From: an uncultured Candidatus Saccharibacteria bacterium | Lineage (GTDB): Bacteria > Patescibacteriota > Minisyncoccia > Phycocordibacterales > UBA918 | Direction: 5' to 3' | NCBI GenBank assembly: GCA_964350735.1 | Contig: CAYGKO010000001.1 | Coordinates: forward strand, 246,578-310,577 | Length of the DNA stretch: 64,000 bases | Shown: piece by piece, positions 43,816 to 61,439 of the stretch | Layout: each line of letters opens with the position of its first letter | Position numbering within the stretch: the stretch's first letter is position 1 | Position numbers and translations under genes: made by a program | The notes under the pieces: model-generated | Databases searched by the model: none | Seen by the model: the letters and a program-made list of their open reading frames with translations, nothing else | What the model was told of the DNA's origin: nothing

Positions 43816-44212
43816 AGTTGTATACAAGGTTAATTAAAAAGTTACATAAACCGGTTGGAGCTGCCATCAAAAACCTTGCTAAGAGAGGTGCTAATTCAAA
43901 TTGTGTCATAAGGAAGTTACTGCCAAAAATACTGATGAGTAAGCCACTTGCGGCAATAATAGAGAAGTATATAAAACCTGCTGCCACGCCTCGTTTGGTG
44001 CCTCTAAAGGTGTATTTTCGAAAAATGAAATAACTGATTGACAGTGATACGAAGAACCCAGTTCCGATTGCGGTTAGTGTTGGGATCGAGAAAACGTAGA
44101 GTAACATTGCTGTTAACGATAATTCTCCAGCAAGGGTCGCGAGTCCCACAAAGAAGAACGAAACAAATCGTTTGTAGACATTTTCTTTATTGGAAATAAT
44201 CGTTTGTAACAT
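43790..44212 (-). CDS. GtrA-family membrane protein
   Basis: 140 aa, 4 TM, RFVSFFFVGLATLAGELSLTAMLLYVF (typical GtrA N-terminal pattern). Confidence 0.55.
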   Translation of the reverse strand: MLQTIISNKENVYKRFVSFFFVGLATLAGELSLTAMLLYVFSIPTLTAIGTGFFVSLSISYFIFRKYTFRGTKRGVAAGFIYFSIIAASGLLISIFGSNFLMTQFELAPLLARFLMAAPTGLCNFLINLVYNFKVAHIPH

Positions 44213-44287
44213 TTGTGTATCAGCTTAGCATGAGAATTCTCATTGTTTTGATTTGGCACTTGGAGGTAAGTGAATTATTATTGAGCA

Positions 44288-44950
44288 GTGAAAAATAAAA
44301 CAGCATTATACGGAGGCTTAGTTTGGTTGTTAGCTGGAATTGGTTTAACCACGTACGGCATCGTTGGTTTATCTGGATTAGCCGTTCCAGGCGTAGAGCA
44401 ATTAGTTGGTTTTATCAGTGGGATTGAGGGGAGGTATATTTACGCAGCGGCGTTTCTGGCAATCTTAATTGAGGGATTATATTTTATTGGTAGCTTTTTC
44501 CCTGGTACTACGCTTATTATTGTGGTTGCAGTTTTATCACAAGCGCAAAGCTGGTTTACGTTTGCGCTGACCATTCTGTCTATTTTCTTAGGGTGGTGTG
44601 TGGCTGGGATTATTAATATTACGATGGCGAGCAAACTCGCTTCACACCAAGCTCCTGAGCCAGTTGAGGTGAAGGATCGATTGTTTATAACGTGGTTTCC
44701 CGCGTTCCGGGCTAACTATGAGGTTTCCCAGGTGGTAGCCGGGGCAGATCCGTATAAAGTGTTTTTATCATCAGTTCGAGTGCGGGCCTGGGCTAGTTTG
44801 GCAGCAGCAGTTGGGGTGGCGATCCTGCCGCTCATTGTGGACGTGACAGAAATGAAAAACGAAGAAGGTTTTGCCTCCCTATTTGTCATTGCTGCGATAA
44901 TGCTGGGAACGGGAACGTGGCAAATTCGTTCATATCGACGGAATAGATAG
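44288..44950 (+). CDS. membrane protein, possibly DedA/VTT-like
   Basis: LIEGLYFIGSFFPGTTLIIVVAVL resembles the VTT E...PG motif; weak. Confidence 0.35.
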   Translation: MKNKTALYGGLVWLLAGIGLTTYGIVGLSGLAVPGVEQLVGFISGIEGRYIYAAAFLAILIEGLYFIGSFFPGTTLIIVVAVLSQAQSWFTFALTILSIFLGWCVAGIINITMASKLASHQAPEPVEVKDRLFITWFPAFRANYEVSQVVAGADPYKVFLSSVRVRAWASLAAAVGVAILPLIVDVTEMKNEEGFASLFVIAAIMLGTGTWQIRSYRRNR

Positions 44951-44964
44951 GGGACAGCATTATA

Positions 44965-44992
44965 AAACCCGCTCATGAGTGAGCGGGTTTTA
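44965..44992. terminator. rho-independent terminator
   Basis: AAAACCCGCTCA-tgag-TGAGCGGGTTTT. Confidence 0.85.
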
Positions 44993-45011
44993 TGTGTCGT
45001 TAGGCGAGTGA

Positions 45012-45359
45012 CTATTTTGTCACGGTATCAACAACTCGTTGGAATACTTCTGGTCGGTCTTTTGCTAGTGTGGCTAGGACTTTTCGGTTTACACCGATGT
45101 TTTTGTCAGACATAGCTTTCATGAAGCGACTGTACTGCATACCCTGGGCTTTAAGGGCAGCATTGATGCGAGTGATCCAGAGTGATCGGAAATCACCTTT
45201 TTTGTCCTTACGGTGATCAAACGCGTATAGTTGTGCGTGATAGATTGCTTCTCGGGCATTTTTTACCTTAGTCGAACGACCAAATCGGTACCCCTTTACT
45301 TGTGCGAGGATATTGCGACGGCGCTTTTGGGCCATCAAACCTCCTTTTACTCGTGCCAT
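45012..45359 (-). CDS. rplT: 50S ribosomal protein L20
   Basis: MARVKGGLMAQKRRRNILAQVKGYRFGRSTKVKNAREA. Confidence 0.95.
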   Translation of the reverse strand: MARVKGGLMAQKRRRNILAQVKGYRFGRSTKVKNAREAIYHAQLYAFDHRKDKKGDFRSLWITRINAALKAQGMQYSRFMKAMSDKNIGVNRKVLATLAKDRPEVFQRVVDTVTK

Positions 45360-45383
45360 AGTTGGTTATTTAAAGATTAGTAA

Positions 45384-45575
45384 TTACGCACCTGTTTTAG
45401 GTAGGAATTGTCGGGTAATGCGCTTGCTCAGGGTAAGCAGCTGGGTTCGCTTGCGTCGTAGTCGCTGTCGACCAGTTTGACGAGCGTTGAAGTGGTTTTG
45501 GCCAGGCTTACGGGCAACCAGCTTACCGTTTTTGGTCACTTTGATTCGTTTGCTGTATGACTTGTTTGTTTTCAT
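45384..45575 (-). CDS. rpmI: 50S ribosomal protein L35 (63 aa; the listed longer ORF is an upstream read-through)
   Basis: MKTNKSYSKRIKVTKNGKLVARKPGQNHFNARQTGRQRLRRKRTQ. Confidence 0.8.
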   Translation of the reverse strand: MKTNKSYSKRIKVTKNGKLVARKPGQNHFNARQTGRQRLRRKRTQLLTLSKRITRQFLPKTGA

Positions 45576-45694
45576 AAATAATCTATTTAGTTCGGGGTAT
45601 TTCACTGTGAGAAGCAGTAAAAAGTGGGCCAAATATACCTTATTTAGCACAGAAAGTCCACTCTTTTTAAAGAACCTCATGGTACTATTTTTAT

Positions 45695-46294
45695 ATGAAT
45701 TACAATGAATTAGTGCTGGCCTCCACGTCACCGCGTCGAATTGAGATTTTAGGTAATACAGGTATTGCGTTTCGAACAGAGGCAAGTACTTACGAAGAGG
45801 ACATGACACTGCCTATGCAGGCTCATGAGCTTGTACGGTATCTGGCGACTGGTAAAGCCTCCGAAGTATCAGGTCGATTTCCTGAAGATTTAGTAATTGG
45901 CGGTGATACATTTATTGTGCACGAAGGGAATTTTTTAGGGAAGCCTAAGTCTGACGCTGAAGCGAAGCGAACACTGCTTGCAATTAGTGATGAAACGGTA
46001 GAAGTCATCTCGGGCATTGCTTTGTTACACGGTGCGTCTGGATTTGAGAAAACTTTCCATGAAGTCACAACGGTCGAGTTTCGCCAGATTCCGGAAGCGG
46101 CGATTGATATGTACATCAAAACTGGCATCCCATTTGATAGAGCGGGAGCGTTTGGTGTCCAAGATATCGGTGGACGTTTTATAAACGAAATCCGAGGAGA
46201 CCATTTCAATTTAATGGGCTTACCGCTATTTCGACTCTTGGATGAGCTGTATGAAATAGACAAGACTCTACTAGTTCAGCCAGTTACGATCTAG
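45695..46294 (+). CDS. maf: Maf-like nucleotide pyrophosphatase
   Basis: LVLASTSPRRIEIL...GGDTFIV...EAKRTL...AGAFGVQ. Confidence 0.85.
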   Translation: MNYNELVLASTSPRRIEILGNTGIAFRTEASTYEEDMTLPMQAHELVRYLATGKASEVSGRFPEDLVIGGDTFIVHEGNFLGKPKSDAEAKRTLLAISDETVEVISGIALLHGASGFEKTFHEVTTVEFRQIPEAAIDMYIKTGIPFDRAGAFGVQDIGGRFINEIRGDHFNLMGLPLFRLLDELYEIDKTLLVQPVTI

Positions 46295-47421
46295 AGATGC
46301 GACCTCTCCCGCAACTCTTTTCTGTAGAGTACAGATACTAGTACAAAGCTTATAATCATGAGTAAGAACCACGCGATACATTTTTGTGGTGACACCAGTG
46401 TCCAGACAATTTCTTGGTTAGGATAGAACCAGGTCCCGGTAAATGTACCGATGTTTTCTGCTATCCAAATAAAAAATGATATTAATATAAAACCTAGTAA
46501 CAAAGGCATAGAATATTCTTTAGTAAGCCGGAAATAGACTTTTGTATTCCAGAACAAGACAAAAGCAAAGCAAATTAAAAGGTATCTAAAGTCAAAGATA
46601 AAATGGTGTGTGAAGAAGTTGATATAGATTCCGGCAGCTAGGATATAGGTATATCCAAATTTCGGATAGTTGCTAAAGGAAAGTGAAAGAAGTTTCCACG
46701 CTCGGGCGATATAGCTACCAACAGCTGAATACAGAAAGCCGGTAAATAAAGGAACGGTGGCAACGATAAAAATTGCGTCCTCTGGATAATTCCAAGATTG
46801 GATTGTACTTGAAGTTTTGAATAATTCCATGACAGTGGCCACAATATGAAAACTAAAAATAGCCACAAGCTCTTTAGTTGTCTCTAATTTAAATACTATA
46901 AGTAATATCTGGACAGTAATTGCAAATAGAAAAATATAATCATACCTATACAGACCAGGCAGATCTACATACGTAGTAAATAGTATGAAAAATAATAATA
47001 AAGCGCCAAAAATTGATGCTGCAGCTTGTAGCTTCGCAAACACAACAAGCTCCCGCATTAGGGTGCGAGTGAGTTCCGGGCTTGAGACCACCACATGAAC
47101 ACAGCCAAACACAATAATCCCTAAAATACTAAAAACTATATCGCTGAATGAGAAAGTTCGCTCCAGGCTTAATAATTGAAGTGATTCATCTAACAATTGG
47201 AATAGGATGACTATCGGATAAGCTACCAGCCATAACTTGGTCCACTGCTTACAAAAAAGAGCTAAGGTAAAAGCTAATACGCCAAAGATGAAAAAGTGGC
47301 CCACCTCATCAAACCACACATGATCAATCAGCCAGAGTGGAAACAATCCCTGGTTCGCCATGAAGGTGCCAATTGAATACAGGCATAAAGAAAACAGCAG
47401 TAATAACAAAGATAATTTCAT
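46291..47421 (-). CDS. AT-rich polytopic membrane protein (VanZ-like N-terminal region?)
   Basis: About 11 TM; HVWFDEVGHFFIFGVLAF...LLDESLQ weakly VanZ-like; low GC. Confidence 0.45.
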   Translation of the reverse strand: MKLSLLLLLFSLCLYSIGTFMANQGLFPLWLIDHVWFDEVGHFFIFGVLAFTLALFCKQWTKLWLVAYPIVILFQLLDESLQLLSLERTFSFSDIVFSILGIIVFGCVHVVVSSPELTRTLMRELVVFAKLQAAASIFGALLLFFILFTTYVDLPGLYRYDYIFLFAITVQILLIVFKLETTKELVAIFSFHIVATVMELFKTSSTIQSWNYPEDAIFIVATVPLFTGFLYSAVGSYIARAWKLLSLSFSNYPKFGYTYILAAGIYINFFTHHFIFDFRYLLICFAFVLFWNTKVYFRLTKEYSMPLLLGFILISFFIWIAENIGTFTGTWFYPNQEIVWTLVSPQKCIAWFLLMIISFVLVSVLYRKELRERSHL

Positions 47422-47469
47422 ACTTTGTTATTACTGCCTGTTAACTATATTGGTTGCGAGGTATGTACC

Positions 47470-48144
47470 CTAAATCATTCCTCCCTCAAGTAGTTCATCA
47501 AGGCTCTTTTTCTTTGATTTTTTAGTTTCTGCACCAGCTTTCTTTTCTACGTTCTCTTCTTTCGGCTTAGCTTCTTCTTCGATCACTTTACCTTTTTGGT
47601 ACTTGGCTTTCCCGTCTCGTTCGAGGGTAGTGGTCCAACCTTTAGGGCTTTTCTTCATTTCATCAGCCACCTTGTATTCGATTGGAATAATCTTGAGGAA
47701 TCGCTCGAGCCGCTCTTTTAGAAAAGTGGGCTCCATGTACTTGTAGCGCCCCCACAGAAAGAGGTCTACCTTGACGCGGTGACCTTCAGACAGCCATTCA
47801 GCTGCTCGACGAGCCTTGAGGGCTTGGTCAGCGTCACCAGTTCCGATCTTTACCTGGACACTTTTAGTTTCAGTAACGTGGGACTTGGATTTAACTTCGC
47901 TGGCTTTTCGCTTGGTTTCGTAGCGGTACTGGCCGAAGTCCATGATCTTCGCAACGGGTGGCTTGGCCTTAGGGGAGATCTCAATTAGGTCGAGGTTTAC
48001 CTTGTCAGCAGCGGCGAGGGCTTCTTCGGTGGTCAGGACACCGAGGTTTTCACCTTCACTACCAATCACCCGCAGCTCTTTAGCTCGGATAGCGTTATTG
48101 ATTCGGGTACGGTCTTTTTGTTGGTATCGTGGTTTTTGCTTCAA
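47470..48144 (-). CDS. infC: translation initiation factor IF-3 with Lys/Glu-rich C-terminal extension
   Basis: INNAIRAKELRVIGSEGENLGVLTTEEALAAADKVNLDLIEISPKAKPPVAKIMDFGQYRYE. Confidence 0.9.
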   Translation of the reverse strand: MKQKPRYQQKDRTRINNAIRAKELRVIGSEGENLGVLTTEEALAAADKVNLDLIEISPKAKPPVAKIMDFGQYRYETKRKASEVKSKSHVTETKSVQVKIGTGDADQALKARRAAEWLSEGHRVKVDLFLWGRYKYMEPTFLKERLERFLKIIPIEYKVADEMKKSPKGWTTTLERDGKAKYQKGKVIEEEAKPKEENVEKKAGAETKKSKKKSLDELLEGGMI

Positions 48145-48279
48145 ATGATTTGGTCTTAAGTTATAAGTCTTCAGTGATCGCTGGGCAACGATCGAAGGTG
48201 CTACACGTAGATAGCGCTCCAGTAGTGGTTACTATTGGTGGGCAAAATATAGCACGGTATATCTTTGTATTCAATACTT

Positions 48280-51415: not shown

Positions 51416-51982
51416 ATGATTTGGCTCAAAAACCTCGTACTCGAATTAGGCCCGCTCGTACTCTTTTTTGTTGCAGACGCCTACATTGGGTTTTTCCCGG
51501 CGGTTGCAGTGTTGATTGTGAGTACGCTCCTTACACTTCTGTATACCTGGTATGGAGAAGGGAGACTCCCGTACTTCGCTTTATTCACGGCTGTAACGGT
51601 CGGGGTGTTTGGCGGACTCAGTATTGCATTCGGCGACGCTGATTGGTTTATCATTTCCGACACTTTTTTGGATATTGGGTTCGCATTGGCGTTGTACGCT
51701 AGTCTTTGGTTTAAAAAACCACTGTTACAAATACTATTTGAATCTTCGTTTGCTATTACTGACCGGGCTTGGCGTATCCTCACCATTCGCTGGACGATAC
51801 TTTTCTTAGGTTTGGCGATTGCTAGTGAGGCTATTCGACAACTGTACTCAGTTGATACGTGGGTACAATTTAAAGCCTTGTCAGTCTTTGTTATTCTCGC
51901 ATTTGGTTGTTATCAATTCACCTTGTCACGAAAAGAGCGTTTACCAGAAGTTTCAAATGACTGGGGTTTACGAGTCAGATAG
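51416..51982 (+). CDS. YciB/IspZ-family inner membrane protein
   Basis: Pattern GPLVLFFVADAYIG...LIVSTLLTLLYTW...VGVFGGLSIAF...WFKKPLL parallels E. coli YciB throughout; TTATACT 8 nt upstream of the ATG. Confidence 0.55.
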   Translation: MIWLKNLVLELGPLVLFFVADAYIGFFPAVAVLIVSTLLTLLYTWYGEGRLPYFALFTAVTVGVFGGLSIAFGDADWFIISDTFLDIGFALALYASLWFKKPLLQILFESSFAITDRAWRILTIRWTILFLGLAIASEAIRQLYSVDTWVQFKALSVFVILAFGCYQFTLSRKERLPEVSNDWGLRVR

Positions 51983-52834
51983 TTTTTTTGGTAGCCAGGG
52001 AATGAAGTAGTTGGTAGTCGCCATGTACTTTTTATATTCCTCTGGATATTTCTCTAAGAAAATATCTTCGAGCATTGGTCCAGTTACTTTGGTCAAAATA
52101 AAAGTGATCAAGAGTGGTGAGAGGAGCGCCAAAAAGCCGTACTGAAAAGGGAAGGCAATGATTGCCAAGCCCCACCAGATGAGTGATTCACCAAAGTAGT
52201 TTGGCCGTCGGGAGTAGCGAAACAAACCAGCTGTCATTAGGGTCTTTTCTTCAGTGCCAGCGATCTTACGTTTAATAAACTGATCGAGTTGCCAGTCGGC
52301 TGTTGTTTCAAGTAGGAGGCCCAGTAGCCAAATGCCAATCCCGGCATACATCAGTATAGAGATGCTAGTCGCTGGACCAGCTATCTCCGCTGCGATCACG
52401 AGTATCATTGGTAGTGACACCAGCACAATGATAATGCCTTGCAGAATATTGATCTGTAAGTAGCTGCGCAATAAAAAGTACAACCACCCTCGTTGCATCC
52501 ACTTAGTGCGCCAATTTTTGTACCGCTGATCCTCAGGTTTCCCCCAATTTTTTCGTCCGATTCGAATCCCAAGGCGTAGCGCCCAGACGGTTACTAAAAT
52601 AGCGACAATTATTGTGATCGGAGTCAGGGTGTTGGTTAATAAAATTGTGGCCCAGGTACTGACTGCAAAAGCCGGTCCGTATGATATGTCCATAACACTG
52701 TTGTCTTGGCGGGCTTGAGCTATCAAGAACACCCCCGTTACATATATAAGTGTACAGAGCGCAAAAATCCCTAACGTCAGTAAAAAGAACACATCAATGC
52801 CGAATAACGAAAGATCTGGAGAAGTAAGAATCAT
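51968..52834 (-). CDS. DUF1295 / steroid-5-alpha-reductase-like membrane protein (ICMT/PEMT superfamily)
   Basis: GLFRYSRRPNYFGESLIWWGLAI carries the RHPxYxG-type motif of this superfamily; polytopic. Confidence 0.6.
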   Translation of the reverse strand: MILTSPDLSLFGIDVFFLLTLGIFALCTLIYVTGVFLIAQARQDNSVMDISYGPAFAVSTWATILLTNTLTPITIIVAILVTVWALRLGIRIGRKNWGKPEDQRYKNWRTKWMQRGWLYFLLRSYLQINILQGIIIVLVSLPMILVIAAEIAGPATSISILMYAGIGIWLLGLLLETTADWQLDQFIKRKIAGTEEKTLMTAGLFRYSRRPNYFGESLIWWGLAIIAFPFQYGFLALLSPLLITFILTKVTGPMLEDIFLEKYPEEYKKYMATTNYFIPWLPKKLSDS

Positions 52835-52891
52835 CTTATTTGTGGTTAGCTGCTATAGATTCATTCTAGCAGATGCTACAATAGCTGACAT

Positions 52892-53599
52892 ATGCCCCGG
52901 GCACAGGCACGTTCTACAGAGAATGAAACCACAGTAAATACAGTGGCGGCTAAAAGACGTGCGCCCCGGAAGACTGCAGCCAAAAAAGCGGTAGTAAAAA
53001 AGACGACCAAGAAAGTGGCTGCCAAAAAAGTAGTCCGAAAAAAAGTAGTTAAGAAAGTAGTAAAGCGTTCTGTTGAACGTAAGGCGCCGACCGACGGTTT
53101 AGTTAGTAAAAAACGAGTGGCTATTAATTGGCTGTATATTATTCCAACAGTAGCGGTAGTTTTAGTGATTGCTGCCTCAGTTGCGATCGGATCAACGGAT
53201 GATGGAGTAATAAATGTTGATACTGTAGTGGCAGAAAAAATTGCGCAACGAGAAGCACGACAAGAAGCATTGGAGGCTGAAGGTAAGTCGGAAGAATTTG
53301 CGGAGGAAGAAATCGCACCAGTCGCCACTGGACGTCCAGATGTGCCCGATGGTGGTCTACGGGGACTGGGACAGAGTGCTGCCAAGCCAAAACCACCGAC
53401 GCCAACAGCAAGTACAACAGAAGCCGCAAGCACTACTGCATCGAGTGCAACCGCAAGCTCAACTGATGCTGGAGGAGAGGATATAGAAACCGAAGTTCAA
53501 AACGATGAAGTGACAGAGGAAGGTTCTGACGCTGAAGAGCAAGTAATACCAGAGGAGTCTGAGTCAGGGGTGGCAACGAGCAGTGATCCTACGATTTAG
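52892..53599 (+). CDS. membrane-anchored histone H1-like lysine-rich protein
   Basis: N-terminal AAKRRAPRKTAAKKAVVKKTTKKVAAKKVVRKKVVKKVVKR (H1/Hc1/AlgP-like KKxx repeats), one TM helix, acidic Ser/Thr-rich C-terminal tail; TACAAT -10 upstream. Confidence 0.6.
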   Translation: MPRAQARSTENETTVNTVAAKRRAPRKTAAKKAVVKKTTKKVAAKKVVRKKVVKKVVKRSVERKAPTDGLVSKKRVAINWLYIIPTVAVVLVIAASVAIGSTDDGVINVDTVVAEKIAQREARQEALEAEGKSEEFAEEEIAPVATGRPDVPDGGLRGLGQSAAKPKPPTPTASTTEAASTTASSATASSTDAGGEDIETEVQNDEVTEEGSDAEEQVIPEESESGVATSSDPTI

Positions 53600-54000
53600 T
53601 TTTTTTGGCATTTAGCACACCGACACCCCTCGGGTCCGATGATGTCACGAACATACATTTTGCCGTAGCTGTAGGTAATTTCATCTCCAGCCTTTATGTT
53701 TTTACAGGCTCGTATATAAATTCTATTTTCCTCTTCATCGTGTTCGGCTTCGGCGTTGGGGATACATGAGTGGTTGGCGTAACGGGCAATATTCTCGCGC
53801 CCTTTACCATCGATAACCAGATCGTCAGTCACTTCAAATAGATAGCGTCCACCGCGTTTATTGGCTTCTGCTTCCGTGATTCGTTCACCGGTGTACTCAA
53901 TAATCAGCTGCTCTTTTGGTATAGCTTCAGCCGCAAAAAGTCCTAGTCCAGCACTAGATCGCTTCACTGCAACTTTTGGTCGGTATGAATCATCTGACAT
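53596..54000 (-). CDS. SET-domain protein lysine methyltransferase
   Basis: GRYLFEV...IDG...GNIARYANHSCIPN...ITYSYG and post-SET CRCAKC. Confidence 0.85.
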   Translation of the reverse strand: MSDDSYRPKVAVKRSSAGLGLFAAEAIPKEQLIIEYTGERITEAEANKRGGRYLFEVTDDLVIDGKGRENIARYANHSCIPNAEAEHDEEENRIYIRACKNIKAGDEITYSYGKMYVRDIIGPEGCRCAKCQKN

Positions 54001-54023
54001 AGTGACGGCCAGTATAACAAAAT

Positions 54024-54557
54024 TTATTGTTGCTCAATAATTAAAGACAAGAGCTCAATTAGCTTAATTAATAAAGCTCGCTTCTGGTTCATTTCTGTAT
54101 CTGGAACTCTGAACAATAGATCTATCTCAGAGAGTGGTGTTGCGTATTGGGTAGAATCATCCAAGTTGTTGATAGAACGTATTGGGGCGCTTTCAGTTTG
54201 GGGGTTAGTAGTTAGAGTGCTCACACTGTTAATTTCTTTTTCTAATTGGGTCAAAATTTGCTCAACTGTACTAATGTCCGTAAAGGCACGTTGGTAGGAT
54301 TCTGTAGCAAATGATTCCTGAGCTTCGCTGAGAGCCGCCTCAGCGTCAGCAAGAGTATCTTCAAAATTAGTTATAGAGACGTCGTCATCTGCAAGTGCGG
54401 TGAGTAGGTCATCATAGTTAGCAATTTCTTGAGTTACTTCTATGAGTGATTCACGTACAGTTTCGAGTGCTGTTTGAGCTTGTGTATATAAAGGTGTAGC
54501 GAGAGCTACTAAGCAAAATAAAAGAAACGGTTGTAAACAAATTTGGTTTTTTGGCAT
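54024..54557 (-). CDS. secreted acidic alpha-helical protein
   Basis: Signal peptide MPKNQICLQPFLLFCLVALATPLYTQA; Asp/Glu/Thr-rich. Confidence 0.5.
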   Translation of the reverse strand: MPKNQICLQPFLLFCLVALATPLYTQAQTALETVRESLIEVTQEIANYDDLLTALADDDVSITNFEDTLADAEAALSEAQESFATESYQRAFTDISTVEQILTQLEKEINSVSTLTTNPQTESAPIRSINNLDDSTQYATPLSEIDLLFRVPDTEMNQKRALLIKLIELLSLIIEQQ

Positions 54558-54605
54558 AGGTCGGTACTATAGTAGGTACGTAATACTAACAGACGAAACA
54601 TATCT

Positions 54606-54980
54606 ATGGCTATCTTTGGATCTAAAAAAATTTTAATTGTTGAGGATGAAGCTGAACTTAGGGAGGCAATGACAATGGTGCTTAAAAAAGAGGGGTATGA
54701 AGCTGAGAGTATTTCAATTGGTACCCAGTTCCCGGGGGCGGTGGTGAATTTTAAGCCAGATTTGATTATTCTCGATATTTCGCTACCAGGATTAAATGGA
54801 GTAGATGCGCTGCGGCTTCTACGGACAGAGATGGACCAGACAGTGCCGGTGTTTGTGTTTACCAACATGAAATTAGATGCAGAACGGGCGGCATTAATCG
54901 AACAATTACAGGGTGTGTATTTGGATAAGTCTGGCACCAGTCTGGCTGAGTTACTTGAGAAAGTAAAAGAAGTTATATAA
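54606..54980 (+). CDS. stand-alone response-regulator receiver (CheY-like) domain
   Basis: KKILIVEDEAELRE...DLIILDISLPGLNG...VFVFTN. Confidence 0.8.
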   Translation: MAIFGSKKILIVEDEAELREAMTMVLKKEGYEAESISIGTQFPGAVVNFKPDLIILDISLPGLNGVDALRLLRTEMDQTVPVFVFTNMKLDAERAALIEQLQGVYLDKSGTSLAELLEKVKEVI

Positions 54981-55029: not shown

Positions 55030-56319
55030 TTATCGATTAGATAGAATCAATAGAAGTAGGTTGCGCACGAGCGTTACCAATTCTTCACGAATCTTTTCTT
55101 CATCTGCGTCAGCTAGATCGGCATCTCCATTTAAGATGTCTTGCAAGCTAATGTCAGAATTCGAATCATTCATTTCGTTCTCTTCGGTAGTGTCTTCCAT
55201 CTGAATGTCTACCAGTTCAGTCGCTTCTTCGACAAGTTCTTTAGCTTCTTCAAGAGCGTCTTCGGCCTCTTCGTCGTCACCAGATTTGATTGCCTCTTCT
55301 GCATCGTCAAGCAATTCTTCGGTGTCTTCAATCAGTTCTTCTACCTTTCTTGATTCGGTAGCGAGCATTTCGTCCTCATCGTCTTCAAAGGCGTCTTTGA
55401 CAACATCAAGCATGTCTTCAATTTCTTTCAGTTCTGCTTCCAGGTCTTCATTTTTGCTGACTTCGTTCGCATCGTTTTCTTCTGCTGCGTCTAAAGCAGC
55501 TTCAGCTTCGTTAAGAAGTTCTAAAGCTTCGTTAGCTAGTTTTTTAGATTCAATATAATCTTCATCATCAAACTCGTCTTCTGCTTCTTCGTACAGATCG
55601 CGAGCTTCGTCGTAGAGTTCCTCAGCGTCTTCTGTGTCGACACCATCTACTTCTGCTTCATTGATTTCATCTTTTACATCTTCTAGTTCTTCTTCAACCT
55701 CCTCCAAAAGTTCTTCAGCCGCTTCTTCACGATCAGATTCCGTCATCGAGACGAAGTCATCTGCATCAGCATTTAGGACATCAAAGATTTCCTCAGCAAA
55801 TTCTTCAGCGGTTTCCGCTTCGGTAACTGCAGTTTCGTAGTCCTCTCCATCAAAAGCATCTTCTGCATCATCAATCGCTCGGTCTGCTTTGGTCATCAAA
55901 GCCAGTGCTTCGTCGATTTGTGTTTCTGGGATATCGTCATCGTCTTTAGCGATGTCGATTGCTTCTTCAGCTCCCTCGATGATGTCTTCTACATCATCAA
56001 TCTTTTCTCGAGCTCCGCCTTTTTCAAAACTATCATCAGCATCAACGGTAAGTACCTCTTCTACCTCATCTTCATCAATATCCAATTCGTTAGCAATTTT
56101 CTTAACAAGTTCGTCGAGGGTACCAACGTTATTGTACGAATACTCTTCTTTAACGTTATCTCCGTCATCATCGTATGAGACCTCCACTTCTGCCTCACTG
56201 TCTTCTACGGTAGCTTCGATTTCCAGATCATCATAAGCAAACGCCTGAAACGTGAGCCCGAAAAATAATAGTAGTGCGATTAGAGTGCTGTAGGCACTAT
56301 TTCTAATAGTAGTAATCAT
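55030..56319 (-). CDS. very acidic (about 40% Asp+Glu) coiled-coil protein with N-terminal signal/anchor
   Basis: MITTIRNSAYSTLIALLLFFGLTFQAFA then repeats EEAEDxFDDEDYE..A; antisense Ser-rich ORFs are low-complexity artefacts. Confidence 0.55.
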   Translation of the reverse strand: MITTIRNSAYSTLIALLLFFGLTFQAFAYDDLEIEATVEDSEAEVEVSYDDDGDNVKEEYSYNNVGTLDELVKKIANELDIDEDEVEEVLTVDADDSFEKGGAREKIDDVEDIIEGAEEAIDIAKDDDDIPETQIDEALALMTKADRAIDDAEDAFDGEDYETAVTEAETAEEFAEEIFDVLNADADDFVSMTESDREEAAEELLEEVEEELEDVKDEINEAEVDGVDTEDAEELYDEARDLYEEAEDEFDDEDYIESKKLANEALELLNEAEAALDAAEENDANEVSKNEDLEAELKEIEDMLDVVKDAFEDDEDEMLATESRKVEELIEDTEELLDDAEEAIKSGDDEEAEDALEEAKELVEEATELVDIQMEDTTEENEMNDSNSDISLQDILNGDADLADADEEKIREELVTLVRNLLLLILSNR

Positions 56320-56436: not shown

Positions 56437-56931
56437 ATGGAACAAATACTCAGTTGGTTATTTTCTATAGTACTGATTCTTTTCCCTCAGGGAGCTGTTG
56501 AAACTAGTGGCGTAGAACCAATATCTGACTCAGATGTTGCTGCTGTTATAAAAGTTGTTGATGGTGATACGATCGATGTTCGCTATACGAACGGGGAAGA
56601 GCAGCGGGTAAGATACATCGGTATTGATACTCCTGAGCCCTATGCGAACAGTGAACTAGAATGTTATGCGCTCGAAGCGACTGAGGCTAATAAAATTTTG
56701 GTAGAGAATCAAGAGGTGCGCCTAGTGAAAGATGTAGAAAATACTGATCGCTACGGTCGATTACTCCGGTATGTATACATAGACGATGTTTTTGTGAATG
56801 CTGCCTTAGTACAAGATGGGTATGCTACTGCACTGCGTATAAAGCCAAATGTTGCTCAGTATGACTTTTTAAAATCATTGGAACGAGAGGCAGAAAATAG
56901 CGCTATTGGAATGTGGGCGAACTGTCTTTAG
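56437..56931 (+). CDS. secreted thermonuclease (staphylococcal nuclease homologue)
   Basis: VVDGDTIDVRY...QRVRYIGIDTPE...DRYGRLLRYVYIDDVFVNAALVQDGYA...GMW. Confidence 0.85.
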   Translation: MEQILSWLFSIVLILFPQGAVETSGVEPISDSDVAAVIKVVDGDTIDVRYTNGEEQRVRYIGIDTPEPYANSELECYALEATEANKILVENQEVRLVKDVENTDRYGRLLRYVYIDDVFVNAALVQDGYATALRIKPNVAQYDFLKSLEREAENSAIGMWANCL

Positions 56932-60932: not shown

Positions 60933-61033
60933 TATACAGATCACATACGCACGTTATGTCTCAGTAGATTTTAAAAAAGCACCCAATTGGGAGCTTTTTT
61001 AAACTTTCATATATTTCTACATACTTCTATGTC

Positions 61034-61439
61034 GGTGGAGATGGCGGGAGTTGAACCCGCGTCCGAATCAGGATTCCAAATGTGAGTCTACAGTGCGTAG
61101 ACGCTTCTTTGATTTAAAACTAGTAGCTATAGAAGTGACAAAACACTACTGGTTCGAGTTCGTACAATCTCGATCTGCTACGTGAACGGCGTAATAGTAT
61201 CCAGTCTCGTGTTTATTCTACCCAATCAGCCGTATGAGACGTTTAACTGATGAGCATCGCATCGGCGAGCGGATGGTTACGCTACAGCGGGTGCGAATCC
61301 GAACGCGTTAGCGTACGGACTTGGTATTGCTTTGTTTGCAAATACGGGTGGAACCTTTTAACGAATTGATTCCAATTTCGACACTGCACACAATGGGCAC
61401 GCTAACCGTCGATGCCTGGCATCCCCGGAAAGTTTTTAA
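61034..61439 (-). ncRNA. ssrA: tmRNA (transfer-messenger RNA)
   Basis: Minus-strand 5' end GGGGATGCCAGGCATCGACGG and 3' end GGACGCGGGTTCAACTCCCGCCATCTCCACC match the tmRNA tRNA-like domain (E. coli: GGACGCGGGUUCAACUCCCGCCAGCUCCACCA). Putative resume codon GCA about nt 88 in ...GUAUUUGCAAAC..., reading ANKAIPSPYANAFGFAPAVA-stop. smpB lies 570 nt upstream. Confidence 0.85.

What the first reader, a model, noticed from the sequence alone, without database searches (positions are those of the whole stretch)
52835..54023. Membrane-anchored histone-H1-like lysine-rich protein convergently paired with a SET-domain lysine methyltransferase
52892..53599 encodes a polybasic N-terminal domain (AAKKAVVKKTTKKVAAKKVVRKKVVKKVVKR) like Hc1/AlgP/H1 tails, followed by a single TM helix and an acidic Ser/Thr tail. 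Its stop overlaps by 4 nt the stop of a canonical SET-domain protein (NHSCIPN, post-SET CRCAKC) on the other strand. In Chlamydia a SET protein methylates the H1-like nucleoid proteins Hc1/Hc2, and archaeal SET proteins methylate chromatin protein MC1. This looks like an analogous enzyme-substrate pair, here with a DNA-binding tail apparently tethered to the membrane.
Basis: partly seen in the sequence, partly recalled or inferred. Interest (0 to 1): 0.75.

Follow-up and report, generated by a model that had tools for sequence, protein, structure and literature searches.

The report
SET methyltransferase beside basic-tailed membrane protein
A small SET-type lysine methyltransferase gene in a Patescibacteria genome lies tail-to-tail with a gene from a large, unannotated family of disordered single-pass membrane proteins; their basic cytoplasmic tail carries an invariant RKAPT motif, which makes it a plausible but unproven natural substrate of the enzyme.

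Summary
52892..53599 (+) encodes a 235-aa protein with a polybasic N-tail, one TM helix and an acidic Ser/Thr tail. 53596..54000 (-) encodes an intact 134-aa SET enzyme, and the two stop codons overlap by 4 nt. The lysine-rich ORF is real: it belongs to an unannotated family of 674 clusters at 50% identity. Of 154 members examined, 153 have one TM helix and 150 carry an R-K-[A/S/V]-P motif (RKAPT in 120) about 17 residues before it. AlphaFold places only the TM helix and one further helix with confidence; the rest looks disordered.

The pair is tail-to-tail adjacent in 13 of 16 assessable loci, even where the basic protein is only 25-35% identical. However, it sits in a conserved backbone (SNase-SET-K-DUF1295-infC-rpmI-rplT) and the genes are convergent. 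The SET gene also persists at 62-77% identity without this neighbour, in six Patescibacteria arrangements and three other-phylum loci.

The "H1-like" character is compositional only (Pfam HC2 14 bits against a cut-off of 40). K and R are interchangeable in the tail, and tail length varies widely.

Verdict: a genuine, conserved gene pair and a reasonable enzyme-substrate candidate (about 0.4). It is not shown, and DNA binding is not supported beyond composition. Interest is moderate.

The parts
52892..53599 (+). Gene for a 235-aa single-pass (N-in) membrane protein of an unannotated Patescibacteria family ('RKAPT-tail protein')
   Evidence: ORF. Family of 674 representatives at E<=1e-3. 153 of 154 members have one TM helix. 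No Pfam, NCBIfam or PDB match. The forward frame has the best synonymous/non-synonymous ratio.
52946..53092 (+). Polybasic cytoplasmic tract (res 19-67), K-rich with V/A/T spacers; includes the family-conserved APRKTAAKK (res 24-32)
   Evidence: Sequence. Highest net charge in the window. Length and K/R ratio vary widely across the family.
53038..53065 (+). 12-nt tandem repeat (2.3 copies, encoding KKVV units) inside the polybasic tract
   Evidence: Tandem Repeats Finder. Consistent with tail-length change by repeat expansion or contraction.
53078..53092 (+). RKAPT motif (res 63-67); candidate recognition or methyl-acceptor site
   Evidence: R, K, A and P are at least 90% conserved in 141 sequences. 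RKAPT is in 120 of 154 members and R-K-[ASV]-P in 146 more broadly; the median distance to the TM helix is 17 aa.
53129..53197 (+). Transmembrane helix (res 80-102)
   Evidence: AlphaFold helix 80-102, block pLDDT 93-95. Hydropathy scan.
53177..53278 (+). Conserved membrane-exit motif S-x-x-I-G-x-[ST]-D-x-G-x-I-[ND]-V, followed by the extracytoplasmic helix (res 109-129)
   Evidence: Alignments A1-A6, with G100, D103, G105 and I107 at least 90% conserved. Helix pLDDT about 92.
53345..53359 (+). PDGGL motif (res 152-156), extracytoplasmic
   Evidence: G154, G155 and L156 are at least 90% conserved.
53399..53596 (+). Ser/Thr-rich then acidic disordered tail (family consensus TASSTDxxASST...)
   Evidence: Alignments. 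pLDDT below about 50. Composition.
53596..54000 (-). Gene for a 134-aa minimal SET-domain protein-lysine methyltransferase with no signal peptide or TM helix
   Evidence: Pfam SET at E 2.8e-25. PDB sequence hits to KMT2D/SET1/MLL at E 1e-14. Invariant GLGLF, EYTG, RGGxYLF, NHxCxP, GxE..YxYG and CxCxxC motifs. Foldseek hit to the MLL1 SET domain at E 9e-9, TM 0.64.
53596..53599 (.). 4-nt overlap of the two convergent stop codons, leaving no intergenic space and no room for a terminator
   Evidence: Sequence. The same 4-nt overlap occurs in L022 and L023, an 11-nt overlap in L021 and L031, and the genes abut in L025 and L015. No terminator-like site lies between the genes.
51968..52834 (-). DUF1295 (PEMT/ICMT/steroid-reductase-like) polytopic membrane protein, divergent from the basic-tail gene across a 57-nt spacer; a frequent third member of the cluster
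   Evidence: Pfam DUF1295 at E 3.4e-55. The same position is occupied in L025, L011, L018, L021, L022, L029 and L030.

Best explanation
Shown by computation here. The locus holds two real genes. One encodes a cytoplasmic, catalytically intact minimal SET-domain lysine methyltransferase. The other encodes a member of a large, previously unannotated family seen so far only in Patescibacteria. Its members are single-pass membrane proteins that are predicted to be disordered apart from the TM helix and one juxtamembrane helix. The N-terminal polybasic tail faces the cytoplasm, by the positive-inside rule. It has two conserved R-K elements: VRK/PRK near the N-terminus, and an almost invariant RKAPT about 17 residues before the membrane. 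The C-terminal part lies outside the cell and carries short conserved motifs (GxSDxGxIxV, PVQ, PDGGL) and a Ser/Thr-rich acidic tail.

Inferred. The SET enzyme methylates lysine(s) of this cytoplasmic tail. The best candidate is the invariant Lys of RKAPT, which resembles the ARKS/RKSAP contexts of histone H3 K9/K27; lysines in the polybasic repeats are also possible. Methylation would tune how the tail binds a cytoplasmic polyanion or partner (DNA, RNA/ribosome or acidic lipid), or would protect it from proteolysis. The membrane protein would be one of several SET substrates, not the only one.
For: The SET gene is intact. The basic-tail family is real and large, with an invariant RK(A/S)P motif, a single TM helix and a variable polybasic tail, and is disordered outside two helices. 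The genes are tail-to-tail adjacent in 13 of 16 assessable loci. These are the window, L025, L001 (a divergent K-rich TM protein in the same slot), L002, L011, L015, L028, L018, L021, L022, L023, L029 and L031. Six of the seven loci found through the basic protein alone show the adjacency. Adjacency persists at 25-35% identity of the basic protein, while the genes on both outer sides change (coiled-coil gene, SNase or ack beyond SET; DUF1295, infC or another gene beyond K). No assessable locus with the basic protein lacked SET within 5 kb; L030 and L024 end too early to judge. The SET family has a conserved acidic hairpin (AEAEHDEEEDR) next to the NHxCxPN motif, which would suit basic substrates. 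Precedents are cpnSET, which binds and methylates Hc1, and Go1-SET, which methylates MC1-alpha (PMC3980110).
Against: The genes are convergent and cannot share a transcript. The pair lies in a conserved backbone, SNase-SET-K-DUF1295-infC-rpmI-rplT, so adjacency may simply be inherited. Overlapping 3' ends also leave no neutral breakpoint, which would preserve adjacency without selection. SET is retained at 62-77% identity with no family member within 6 kb in six Patescibacteria arrangements (L003/L026, L004, L009, L012, L013, L027). It is also present at 63-67% in Hyphomicrobiaceae (on a 4.9-Mb contig) and Chitinophagales. In L005 and L008 other genes separate the pair by 3.7-4.2 kb. K and R are interchangeable in the tail, with a median K fraction of 0.52. 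Four of 154 members have RRAPT; L022 also has RRAPT and keeps an intact adjacent SET.
Confidence: 0.4

Rival explanations
1. Inherited synteny with no functional link. The basic-tail protein is an envelope or surface protein. Its conserved, functional parts are the TM helix and the extracytoplasmic motifs, and the S/T-acidic tail may be glycosylated or cation-binding. The polybasic N-tail would be mainly a topology determinant or lipid-binding anchor. SET would act on other substrates, for example ribosomal proteins or IF3, whose operon infC-rpmI-rplT is the other recurrent neighbour.
For: The backbone SNase-SET-K-DUF1295-infC-rpmI-rplT recurs. In L026 and L027 SET lies directly upstream of infC-rpmI-rplT on the same strand, with no K gene. 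SET occurs without K in several Patescibacteria and in other phyla. The pair is convergent, and the overlapping 3' ends resist separation. The most conserved stretches of the family include the extracytoplasmic GxSDxGxIxV and PDGGL motifs. K and R are interchangeable in the tail. From general knowledge, eukaryotic SET enzymes (yeast Rkm1-4) methylate ribosomal proteins.
Against: The K-SET junction is kept in 13 of 16 loci, while the outer neighbours on both sides change and the cluster moves relative to infC (window, L011, L021, L022). A topology anchor does not explain an invariant cytoplasmic RKAPT motif at a fixed distance from the membrane. No assessable locus has K without SET nearby.
Confidence: 0.35
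2. The basic-tail protein is a membrane adaptor or regulator of the SET enzyme rather than, or as well as, its substrate. The RKAPT motif would dock SET at the membrane as a pseudo-substrate, localising or inhibiting it. Overlapping convergent transcription might additionally couple the expression of the two genes through antisense RNA.
For: The motif is invariant at a fixed distance from the membrane. The RRAPT variant in L022 still has an intact adjacent SET, which fits binding without methyl transfer. The 3' ends overlap by 4-11 nt or abut in seven loci, and the scan finds no intervening terminator.
Against: This is pure inference, with no interaction data. SET is retained without this partner in many genomes. 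The terminator scan is a crude consensus search.
Confidence: 0.12
3. One reading: a membrane-tethered histone-H1-like nucleoid protein that anchors DNA to the membrane and is regulated by SET methylation.
For: The composition of res 19-67 resembles Hc2, with a weak Pfam HC2 hit at E 0.044 here and 1e-4 in P0170. A membrane-anchored nucleoid protein is known in mycobacteria (Rv3852; PMC8233713). Repeat-number variation resembles that of Hc2 (PMC2848022).
Against: The HC2 score is far below the family cut-off (14 against 40 bits). Many family members have short tails (the minimum TM start is about residue 30) or R-dominated tails. No DNA-binding fold is predicted. The conserved features are RKAPT and the extracellular motifs, not the KK repeats.
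Confidence: 0.1
4. The lysine-rich ORF is not translated and the antisense ORF 52876..53433 is the real gene.
For: The antisense ORF is 185 aa long, and its wobble positions coincide with those of the + frame. Third-position excess therefore does not separate the two frames.
Against: The + ORF matches a 674-cluster family with a conserved TM helix and motifs. It has the better synonymous/non-synonymous ratio (93/80 against 77/91). The antisense frame is interrupted in L025, L028 and L008. The antisense product is a low-complexity mirror of K/V/A codons.
Confidence: 0.01

Closest known systems
Chlamydia pneumoniae cpnSET with histone-H1-like Hc1/Hc2 (Murata et al. 2007, as reviewed in PMC3980110)
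   Same: A bacterial SET-domain enzyme paired with an endogenous lysine-rich basic protein. The basic tract has Hc2-like composition and variable repeat number.
   Different: Hc1 and Hc2 are soluble nucleoid proteins with no TM helix, and they are not encoded next to the SET gene as far as I know. Here the basic tract is the cytoplasmic tail of a membrane protein. It fails the Pfam HC2 threshold, and methylation is untested. C. trachomatis NUE does not methylate Hc1 (PMC3980110).
Methanosarcina mazei Go1-SET methylating chromatin protein MC1-alpha (Manzur & Zhou 2005, via PMC3980110)
   Same: A minimal prokaryotic SET enzyme acting on an endogenous basic protein at a specific lysine.
   Different: MC1 is a folded, soluble DNA-binding protein. 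The candidate substrate here is a disordered membrane-protein tail with a short linear motif.
Eukaryotic KMT2/MLL-SET1, EZH and G9a SET domains acting on histone H3 tails
   Same: These are the closest sequence and fold relatives of the enzyme. They recognise disordered basic tails through short R-K-containing motifs (ARTK, ARKS). RKAPT resembles H3 R26-K27-S-A-P; this comparison is from my own knowledge and was not tested.
   Different: The enzyme is 134 aa with no accessory domains or complex partners. The tail belongs to a membrane protein, not a nucleosome.
Mycobacterium tuberculosis Rv3852, a membrane-anchored nucleoid-associated protein (PMC8233713)
   Same: A lysine-rich region tethered to the membrane by a single TM helix.
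   Different: In Rv3852 the TM helix is C-terminal and there is no large extracytoplasmic segment. It is restricted to mycobacteria, has no SET partner, and homology to it was not tested here.
Mycobacterial HBHA and HupB/MDP1 methyl-lysine proteins (PMC8467707, PMC10665949)
   Same: Lysine-rich repeat domains of envelope- or nucleoid-associated bacterial proteins that are lysine-methylated in vivo.
   Different: The K-rich domain is C-terminal and the architecture is different. To my knowledge, no SET-domain enzyme has been implicated in their methylation.

Membership tests
SET-domain protein-lysine methyltransferases (Pfam PF00856) | Match to the SET profile above the curated threshold | tested here: met
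   E 2.8e-25, 89.2 bits against a cut-off of 22.4, covering profile positions 1-105 of 105.
SET-domain protein-lysine methyltransferases (Pfam PF00856) | Catalytic and SAM-binding motifs: GxG, NHSCxPN, and the Tyr of ELxYDY | tested here: met
   GLGLF (18-22), NHSCIPN (76-82) and EITYSY (107-112) are present. They align to the KMT2D motifs and are invariant across 39-46 orthologues.
SET-domain protein-lysine methyltransferases (Pfam PF00856) | Post-SET cysteine cluster | tested here: met
   C126-x-C128-x-x-C131 is invariant, together with C79 of the NHSC motif. Zinc binding itself is not testable here.
SET-domain protein-lysine methyltransferases (Pfam PF00856) | SET fold | tested here: met
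   The AlphaFold model has moderate confidence (pLDDT 67.5, pTM 0.61). Foldseek top hits are MLL1, EZH1, MLL3, NSD1 and G9a SET domains, at E 9e-9 to 4e-7 and TMq 0.57-0.70.
SET-domain protein-lysine methyltransferases (Pfam PF00856) | Lysine methyltransferase activity and substrate identity | not testable with these tools
   Needs an in-vitro assay or mass spectrometry.
Histone H1-like nucleoproteins (Hc1/Hc2, Pfam PF07382; eukaryotic linker histone) | Profile match above threshold, or a linker-histone globular domain | tested here: not met
   HC2 scores 14.3 bits (E 0.044) against a cut-off of 40. There is no other Pfam or NCBIfam hit. Only one of 63 family members reaches E 1e-4.
Histone H1-like nucleoproteins (Hc1/Hc2, Pfam PF07382; eukaryotic linker histone) | Lys/Ala/Val-rich low-complexity repeat tract | tested here: met
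   Res 19-67 carry 17 K + 7 R, with a 12-nt repeat. The tract is not conserved across the family in length or in K content.
Histone H1-like nucleoproteins (Hc1/Hc2, Pfam PF07382; eukaryotic linker histone) | DNA binding and nucleoid compaction | not testable with these tools
   Needs EMSA or in-vivo localisation.
SET / basic-protein enzyme-substrate pair (cpnSET-Hc1 type) | Co-occurrence of the two genes across genomes | tested here: inconclusive
   From K to SET: adjacent in 13 of 16 loci, and within 5 kb in 15 of 16. From SET to K: present in about 8 of 14 Patescibacteria loci and in none of three loci from other phyla. Only flanks of 6 kb or less could be examined, not whole genomes, and the region is generally syntenic.
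SET / basic-protein enzyme-substrate pair (cpnSET-Hc1 type) | Physical interaction and methyl transfer | not testable with these tools
New 'RKAPT-tail' single-pass membrane protein family (defined here) | Basic N-tail, R-K-[AS]-P-T motif 10-20 aa before a single TM helix, GxSDxGxIxV at the membrane exit, PDGGL, and an S/T-acidic tail | tested here: met
   The window protein has all of these features. It scores 218.9 bits (E 6.7e-60) against the family profile, which includes its own sequence.
Membrane-anchored nucleoid-associated protein (Rv3852 type) | Sequence homology to Rv3852 | not tested
The architecture differs, with an internal rather than a C-terminal TM helix.

The most novel reading that the evidence does not exclude
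Patescibacteria carry a dedicated writer-and-tail module. A minimal SET methyltransferase methylates a histone-tail-like short linear motif (RKAPT) on the cytoplasmic tail of a disordered, surface-exposed single-pass membrane protein. Lysine methylation would then switch the tail's binding to nucleoid, ribosome or lipid, coupling the cell envelope or epibiotic interface to the cytoplasm. This would be the first native, non-effector SET substrate defined in a free-living or episymbiotic bacterium, and a prokaryotic analogue of histone-tail signalling on a membrane protein.
Probability: 0.3. Interest if true: 0.75.

Novelty: new variant of a known kind. Interest (0 to 1): 0.55.

Why it matters
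The native role of SET-domain methyltransferases in non-pathogenic bacteria is essentially unknown. Characterised examples are mostly secreted effectors that target host histones, plus two endogenous cases (cpnSET-Hc1 and Go1-SET-MC1-alpha). No paper in the searched library links SET domains with Patescibacteria.

This locus offers a concrete, testable candidate substrate with a defined motif. It also brings to light a large, unannotated family of at least 670 clusters of disordered membrane proteins, in a phylum where most envelope biology is still unknown. If the link is real, it gives a tractable minimal system for studying how SET enzymes recognise short basic motifs: a 134-aa enzyme and a peptide. 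If it is not real, the family still merits annotation.

Tried and rejected
1. The word-indexed homologue search found only 4-6 relatives of the lysine-rich protein, because low complexity swamped the candidate list. The exhaustive profile search was needed to reveal the family.
The subfamily alignment A5 returned only two metagenome loci, so the K-to-SET sample had to be built from encoding-contig look-ups. Two of those contigs were too short to judge (L024, and L030 in part).
4. Third-codon-position excess (56/45/150) turned out not to discriminate the + ORF from the antisense ORF, because their wobble positions coincide. I replaced it with synonymous/non-synonymous counts per frame and with stop-codon checks in relatives.
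5. The Pfam, NCBIfam and PDB profile searches of the basic-tail family gave nothing.
6. The promoter and terminator scan of 52500-54700 was no better than shuffled sequence.
7. I considered and rejected the antisense ORF as the real gene, and membership in H1/Hc2. A secreted effector role for SET is unlikely, since it has no signal peptide or TM helix, although secretion systems were not examined.
Full report
**Observation.** The window is a bacterial chromosome segment: it carries a tmRNA at 61033-61426 and ordinary gene density. The nearest named relatives of this locus are Patescibacteria (CPR) MAGs labelled Kaiserbacteria, Paceibacteria, Parcubacteria or 'Saccharibacteria'.

ORF 52892..53599 (+) is 235 aa and ORF 53596..54000 (-) is 134 aa. 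The + stop TAG (53597-53599) and the - stop TAA (53596-53598) overlap, so the ORFs share 4 nt.

The + product has three parts:
- a 79-residue N-tail with 18 K, 9 R and only 4 D/E;
- one TM helix at residues 80-102, with AlphaFold pLDDT of about 95;
- a 133-residue remainder with 32 D/E and 27 S/T.

It is the most polybasic ORF in the whole window. By the positive-inside rule the tail is cytoplasmic and the acidic part lies outside the cell.

**The SET gene.** This is a canonical SET domain:
- Pfam SET at E 2.8e-25, above the curated threshold.
- The best solved-structure relatives by sequence are KMT2D, SET1 and MLL at E of about 1e-14, with GLGLF, NHSCIPN and EITYSY aligned to the catalytic motifs.
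- The AlphaFold model has moderate confidence (pLDDT 67.5), and Foldseek matches it to the MLL1, EZH1, NSD1 and G9a SET domains.
- The orthologue family is unusually conserved, at 69-89% identity over more than 120 clusters. Invariant features are GLGLF, EYTG, RGGxYLF, NHxCxP, GxE..YxYG, a CxCxxC post-SET cluster and an acidic hairpin AEAEHDEEEDR.
- It has no signal peptide or TM helix, so it is probably an active cytoplasmic lysine methyltransferase.

**The lysine-rich gene is real and belongs to a large unannotated family.**
- It has no Pfam or NCBIfam hit.
- Word-indexed searches found only a handful of relatives.
- An exhaustive profile search of 1.84 billion representatives found 674 clusters at E<=1e-3 and 493 at E<=1e-10. 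The 150 best-scoring hits, which are the ones listed, are 142-270 aa and mostly match over most of their length.
- Among 154 members, 153 have exactly one TM helix. 150 have an R-[KR]-[ASV]-P motif just before it: RKAPT in 120, with RKAPA, RKAPS, RKSPT and RRAPT as minor forms. The median distance to the TM helix is 17 residues.
- Further conserved elements are an N-terminal MxEKxVRK, S-x-x-I-G-x-[ST]-D-x-G-x-I-[ND]-V at the membrane exit, PVQ, PDGGL, and a TASSTDxxASST Ser/Thr tract followed by an acidic tail.
- AlphaFold with 141 sequences places only the TM helix and one following helix (109-129) with confidence. Everything else looks disordered.
- No PDB sequence matches the family profile.

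**Coding strand.** Against the closest relative (L025, 65% amino-acid identity), codon-position differences are 56/45/150. The antisense ORF 52876..53433 shares its wobble positions with the + frame, so this count does not discriminate between them. Three other lines of evidence do:
- the forward frame has the best synonymous/non-synonymous ratio, 93/80 against 77/91;
- the antisense frame is interrupted in L025, L028 and L008;
- family conservation of a TM helix and motifs only makes sense for the + frame.

**Is it histone-H1-like?** Only in composition.
- The window protein scores 14.3 bits (E 0.044) on Pfam HC2 against a cut-off of 40. One of 63 relatives reaches E 1e-4.
- Across the family the N-tail varies greatly in length, with a median of 69 residues before the TM helix.
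- The lysine fraction of the basic residues ranges from 0.12 to 0.88, with a median of 0.52.
- The window's tract contains a 12-nt tandem repeat encoding KKVV units.

The long KK-repeat tract is therefore a lineage-specific expansion of a generic polybasic tail. What selection keeps in the cytoplasmic part is the R-K motifs, above all RKAPT.

**Gene neighbourhood.** I assembled 31 related loci from four sources:
- 17 from genome contigs found through SET;
- 4 from SET homologues on long contigs;
- 8 found through the basic protein itself;
- 2 from a metagenome scan with a subfamily alignment.

HMMs for both families were run on all ORFs of these loci.

Of 16 distinct loci that contain a family member and enough flank to judge:
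- 13 have the SET gene as the immediate tail-to-tail neighbour: the window, L025, L001 (a divergent K-rich TM protein in the same slot), L002, L011, L015, L028, L018, L021, L022, L023, L029 and L031;
- the two genes overlap by 4 nt (L022, L023) or 11 nt (L021, L031), abut (L025, L015), or are separated by 8-119 nt;
- in L005 acetate kinase and phosphoketolase lie between them (3.7 kb);
- in L008 a PfkB kinase, S-adenosylhomocysteine hydrolase, a response regulator and a PAS histidine kinase lie between them (4.2 kb);
- in L030 a PAS protein follows the gene and the contig then ends.

Among loci found only through the basic protein, 6 of 7 assessable ones show the adjacency. These relatives are only 25-35% identical to the window protein.

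**The caveat.** The pair sits in a recurrent backbone: SNase< SET> K< DUF1295> infC> rpmI> rplT>. K and DUF1295 are variably present in it. The whole SET-K-DUF1295 trio is sometimes displaced from infC, as in the window, L011, L021 and L022.

SET is also found without any family member within 6 kb:
- in L003/L026, L004, L009, L012, L013 and L027;
- in L026 and L027 it lies directly upstream of infC-rpmI-rplT on the same strand;
- orthologues at 63-67% identity occur in Hyphomicrobiaceae (a 4.9-Mb contig) and Chitinophagales with unrelated neighbours.

The pattern is asymmetric: K is nearly always found with SET, but SET is often found without K.

**Interpretation.** The asymmetric pattern is what one expects if the basic-tail protein is one clade-specific substrate, or partner, of an older enzyme with other targets. 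It is equally what one expects if a younger gene was inserted next to a conserved gene and has been held there by overlapping 3' ends.

In favour of a functional link:
- the junction persists while both outer flanks turn over;
- the invariant cytoplasmic RKAPT motif sits at a fixed distance from the membrane, a typical short linear recognition motif, and resembles the R-K-S/A-(A)-P context of histone H3 K27/K9 (my own knowledge, not tested);
- both proteins share the cytoplasmic compartment;
- the enzyme has a conserved acidic hairpin;
- there are precedents in cpnSET-Hc1 and Go1-SET-MC1-alpha (PMC3980110).

Against it:
- the genes are convergent;
- K and R are interchangeable in the tail;
- RRAPT variants exist with an intact neighbouring SET (L022);
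- SET is retained without the partner.

I put the enzyme-substrate reading at about 0.4 and incidental synteny at about 0.35. The adaptor or pseudo-substrate reading gets about 0.12. It is an elaboration of the enzyme-substrate idea, so the 0.4 refers to the reading without the nucleoid-tether claim.

**Comparison with known systems.**
- The enzyme is a new member of the SET family.
- The candidate substrate belongs to none of the known H1-like families.
- The nearest functional analogies are cpnSET-Hc1, Go1-SET-MC1-alpha and the membrane-anchored mycobacterial nucleoid protein Rv3852 (PMC8233713).
- The methyl-lysine-bearing K-rich mycobacterial proteins HBHA and HupB are also comparable (PMC8467707, PMC10665949).
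- No paper in the library combines 'SET domain' with Patescibacteria.

**Verdict.** The result is a conserved gene pair and a newly recognised protein family, with a specific and testable, but unproven, enzyme-substrate hypothesis.

Noticed in passing
window 51968..52834 (-): A DUF1295 membrane protein (with weaker matches to the PEMT, ICMT and steroid 5-alpha-reductase families) is transcribed divergently from the basic-tail gene across a 57-nt spacer. It holds the same position in L025, L011, L018, L021, L022, L029 and L030. The conserved unit may therefore be a trio, DUF1295-K-SET, in which the basic-tail gene is flanked by two methyltransferase-like genes.
   Followed up: partly
window 54024..54557 (-): A 177-aa protein with an N-terminal signal-like hydrophobic segment and a coiled-coil region is encoded 23 nt upstream of the SET gene on the same strand. 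It is probably co-transcribed with SET. A counterpart is seen only in the close relative L025 (162 aa).
   Followed up: partly
window 55030..56319 (-): A 429-aa, extremely acidic (D/E-rich) repetitive protein with an N-terminal hydrophobic segment. It has only weak hits to DUF1771 and to the SbsC spectrin-like repeat.
   Followed up: no
L006, L007 (Hyphomicrobiaceae, 4.9-Mb contig), L016 (Chitinophagales): Orthologues of this small SET protein at 63-67% identity occur in Pseudomonadota and Bacteroidota with unrelated neighbours. This points to cross-phylum transfer of a very constrained enzyme, or to an unusually conserved substrate.
   Followed up: partly
L008 6395..8802: In one relative, S-adenosylhomocysteine hydrolase (Pfam E 4e-146) and a PfkB (adenosine-kinase-like) kinase lie immediately convergent to SET. 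This methyl-cycle salvage pair sits next to a SAM-dependent enzyme and between SET and the basic-tail gene.
   Followed up: partly
It is a by-product of K/V/A codon usage and is interrupted in relatives.
   Followed up: yes
L009, L012, L013, L016 (N-termini of the SET proteins): Several SET orthologues that lack the basic-tail neighbour begin with lysine-rich N-termini (MARKKKVRKK, MSKKDIAKK, MNKKNTSKK, MPKKYPKVKVKK). Most of those with the neighbour begin with an acidic MxDDxYRP. This may be only a clade effect, but it could hint at self-methylation or an in-cis tail.
   Followed up: no
window 44000..48200 and 56437..56931: The infC-rpmI-rplT genes and a secreted SNase-family nuclease flank the SET/K pair directly in relatives. 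In this window they are displaced by a few kb, with insertions of IspA, an RnfD-like/FAD-NAD reductase, a response regulator and the acidic protein.
   Followed up: partly
window 61033..61426 (-): tmRNA gene with tag peptide ANKAIPSPYANAFGFAPAVA; Rfam RF00023 at 109.8 bits.
   Followed up: no
L018 12484..16708: Downstream of the conserved cluster in one relative there are DUF3800, DUF5681 and a large serine recombinase, probably an integrated mobile element.
   Followed up: no
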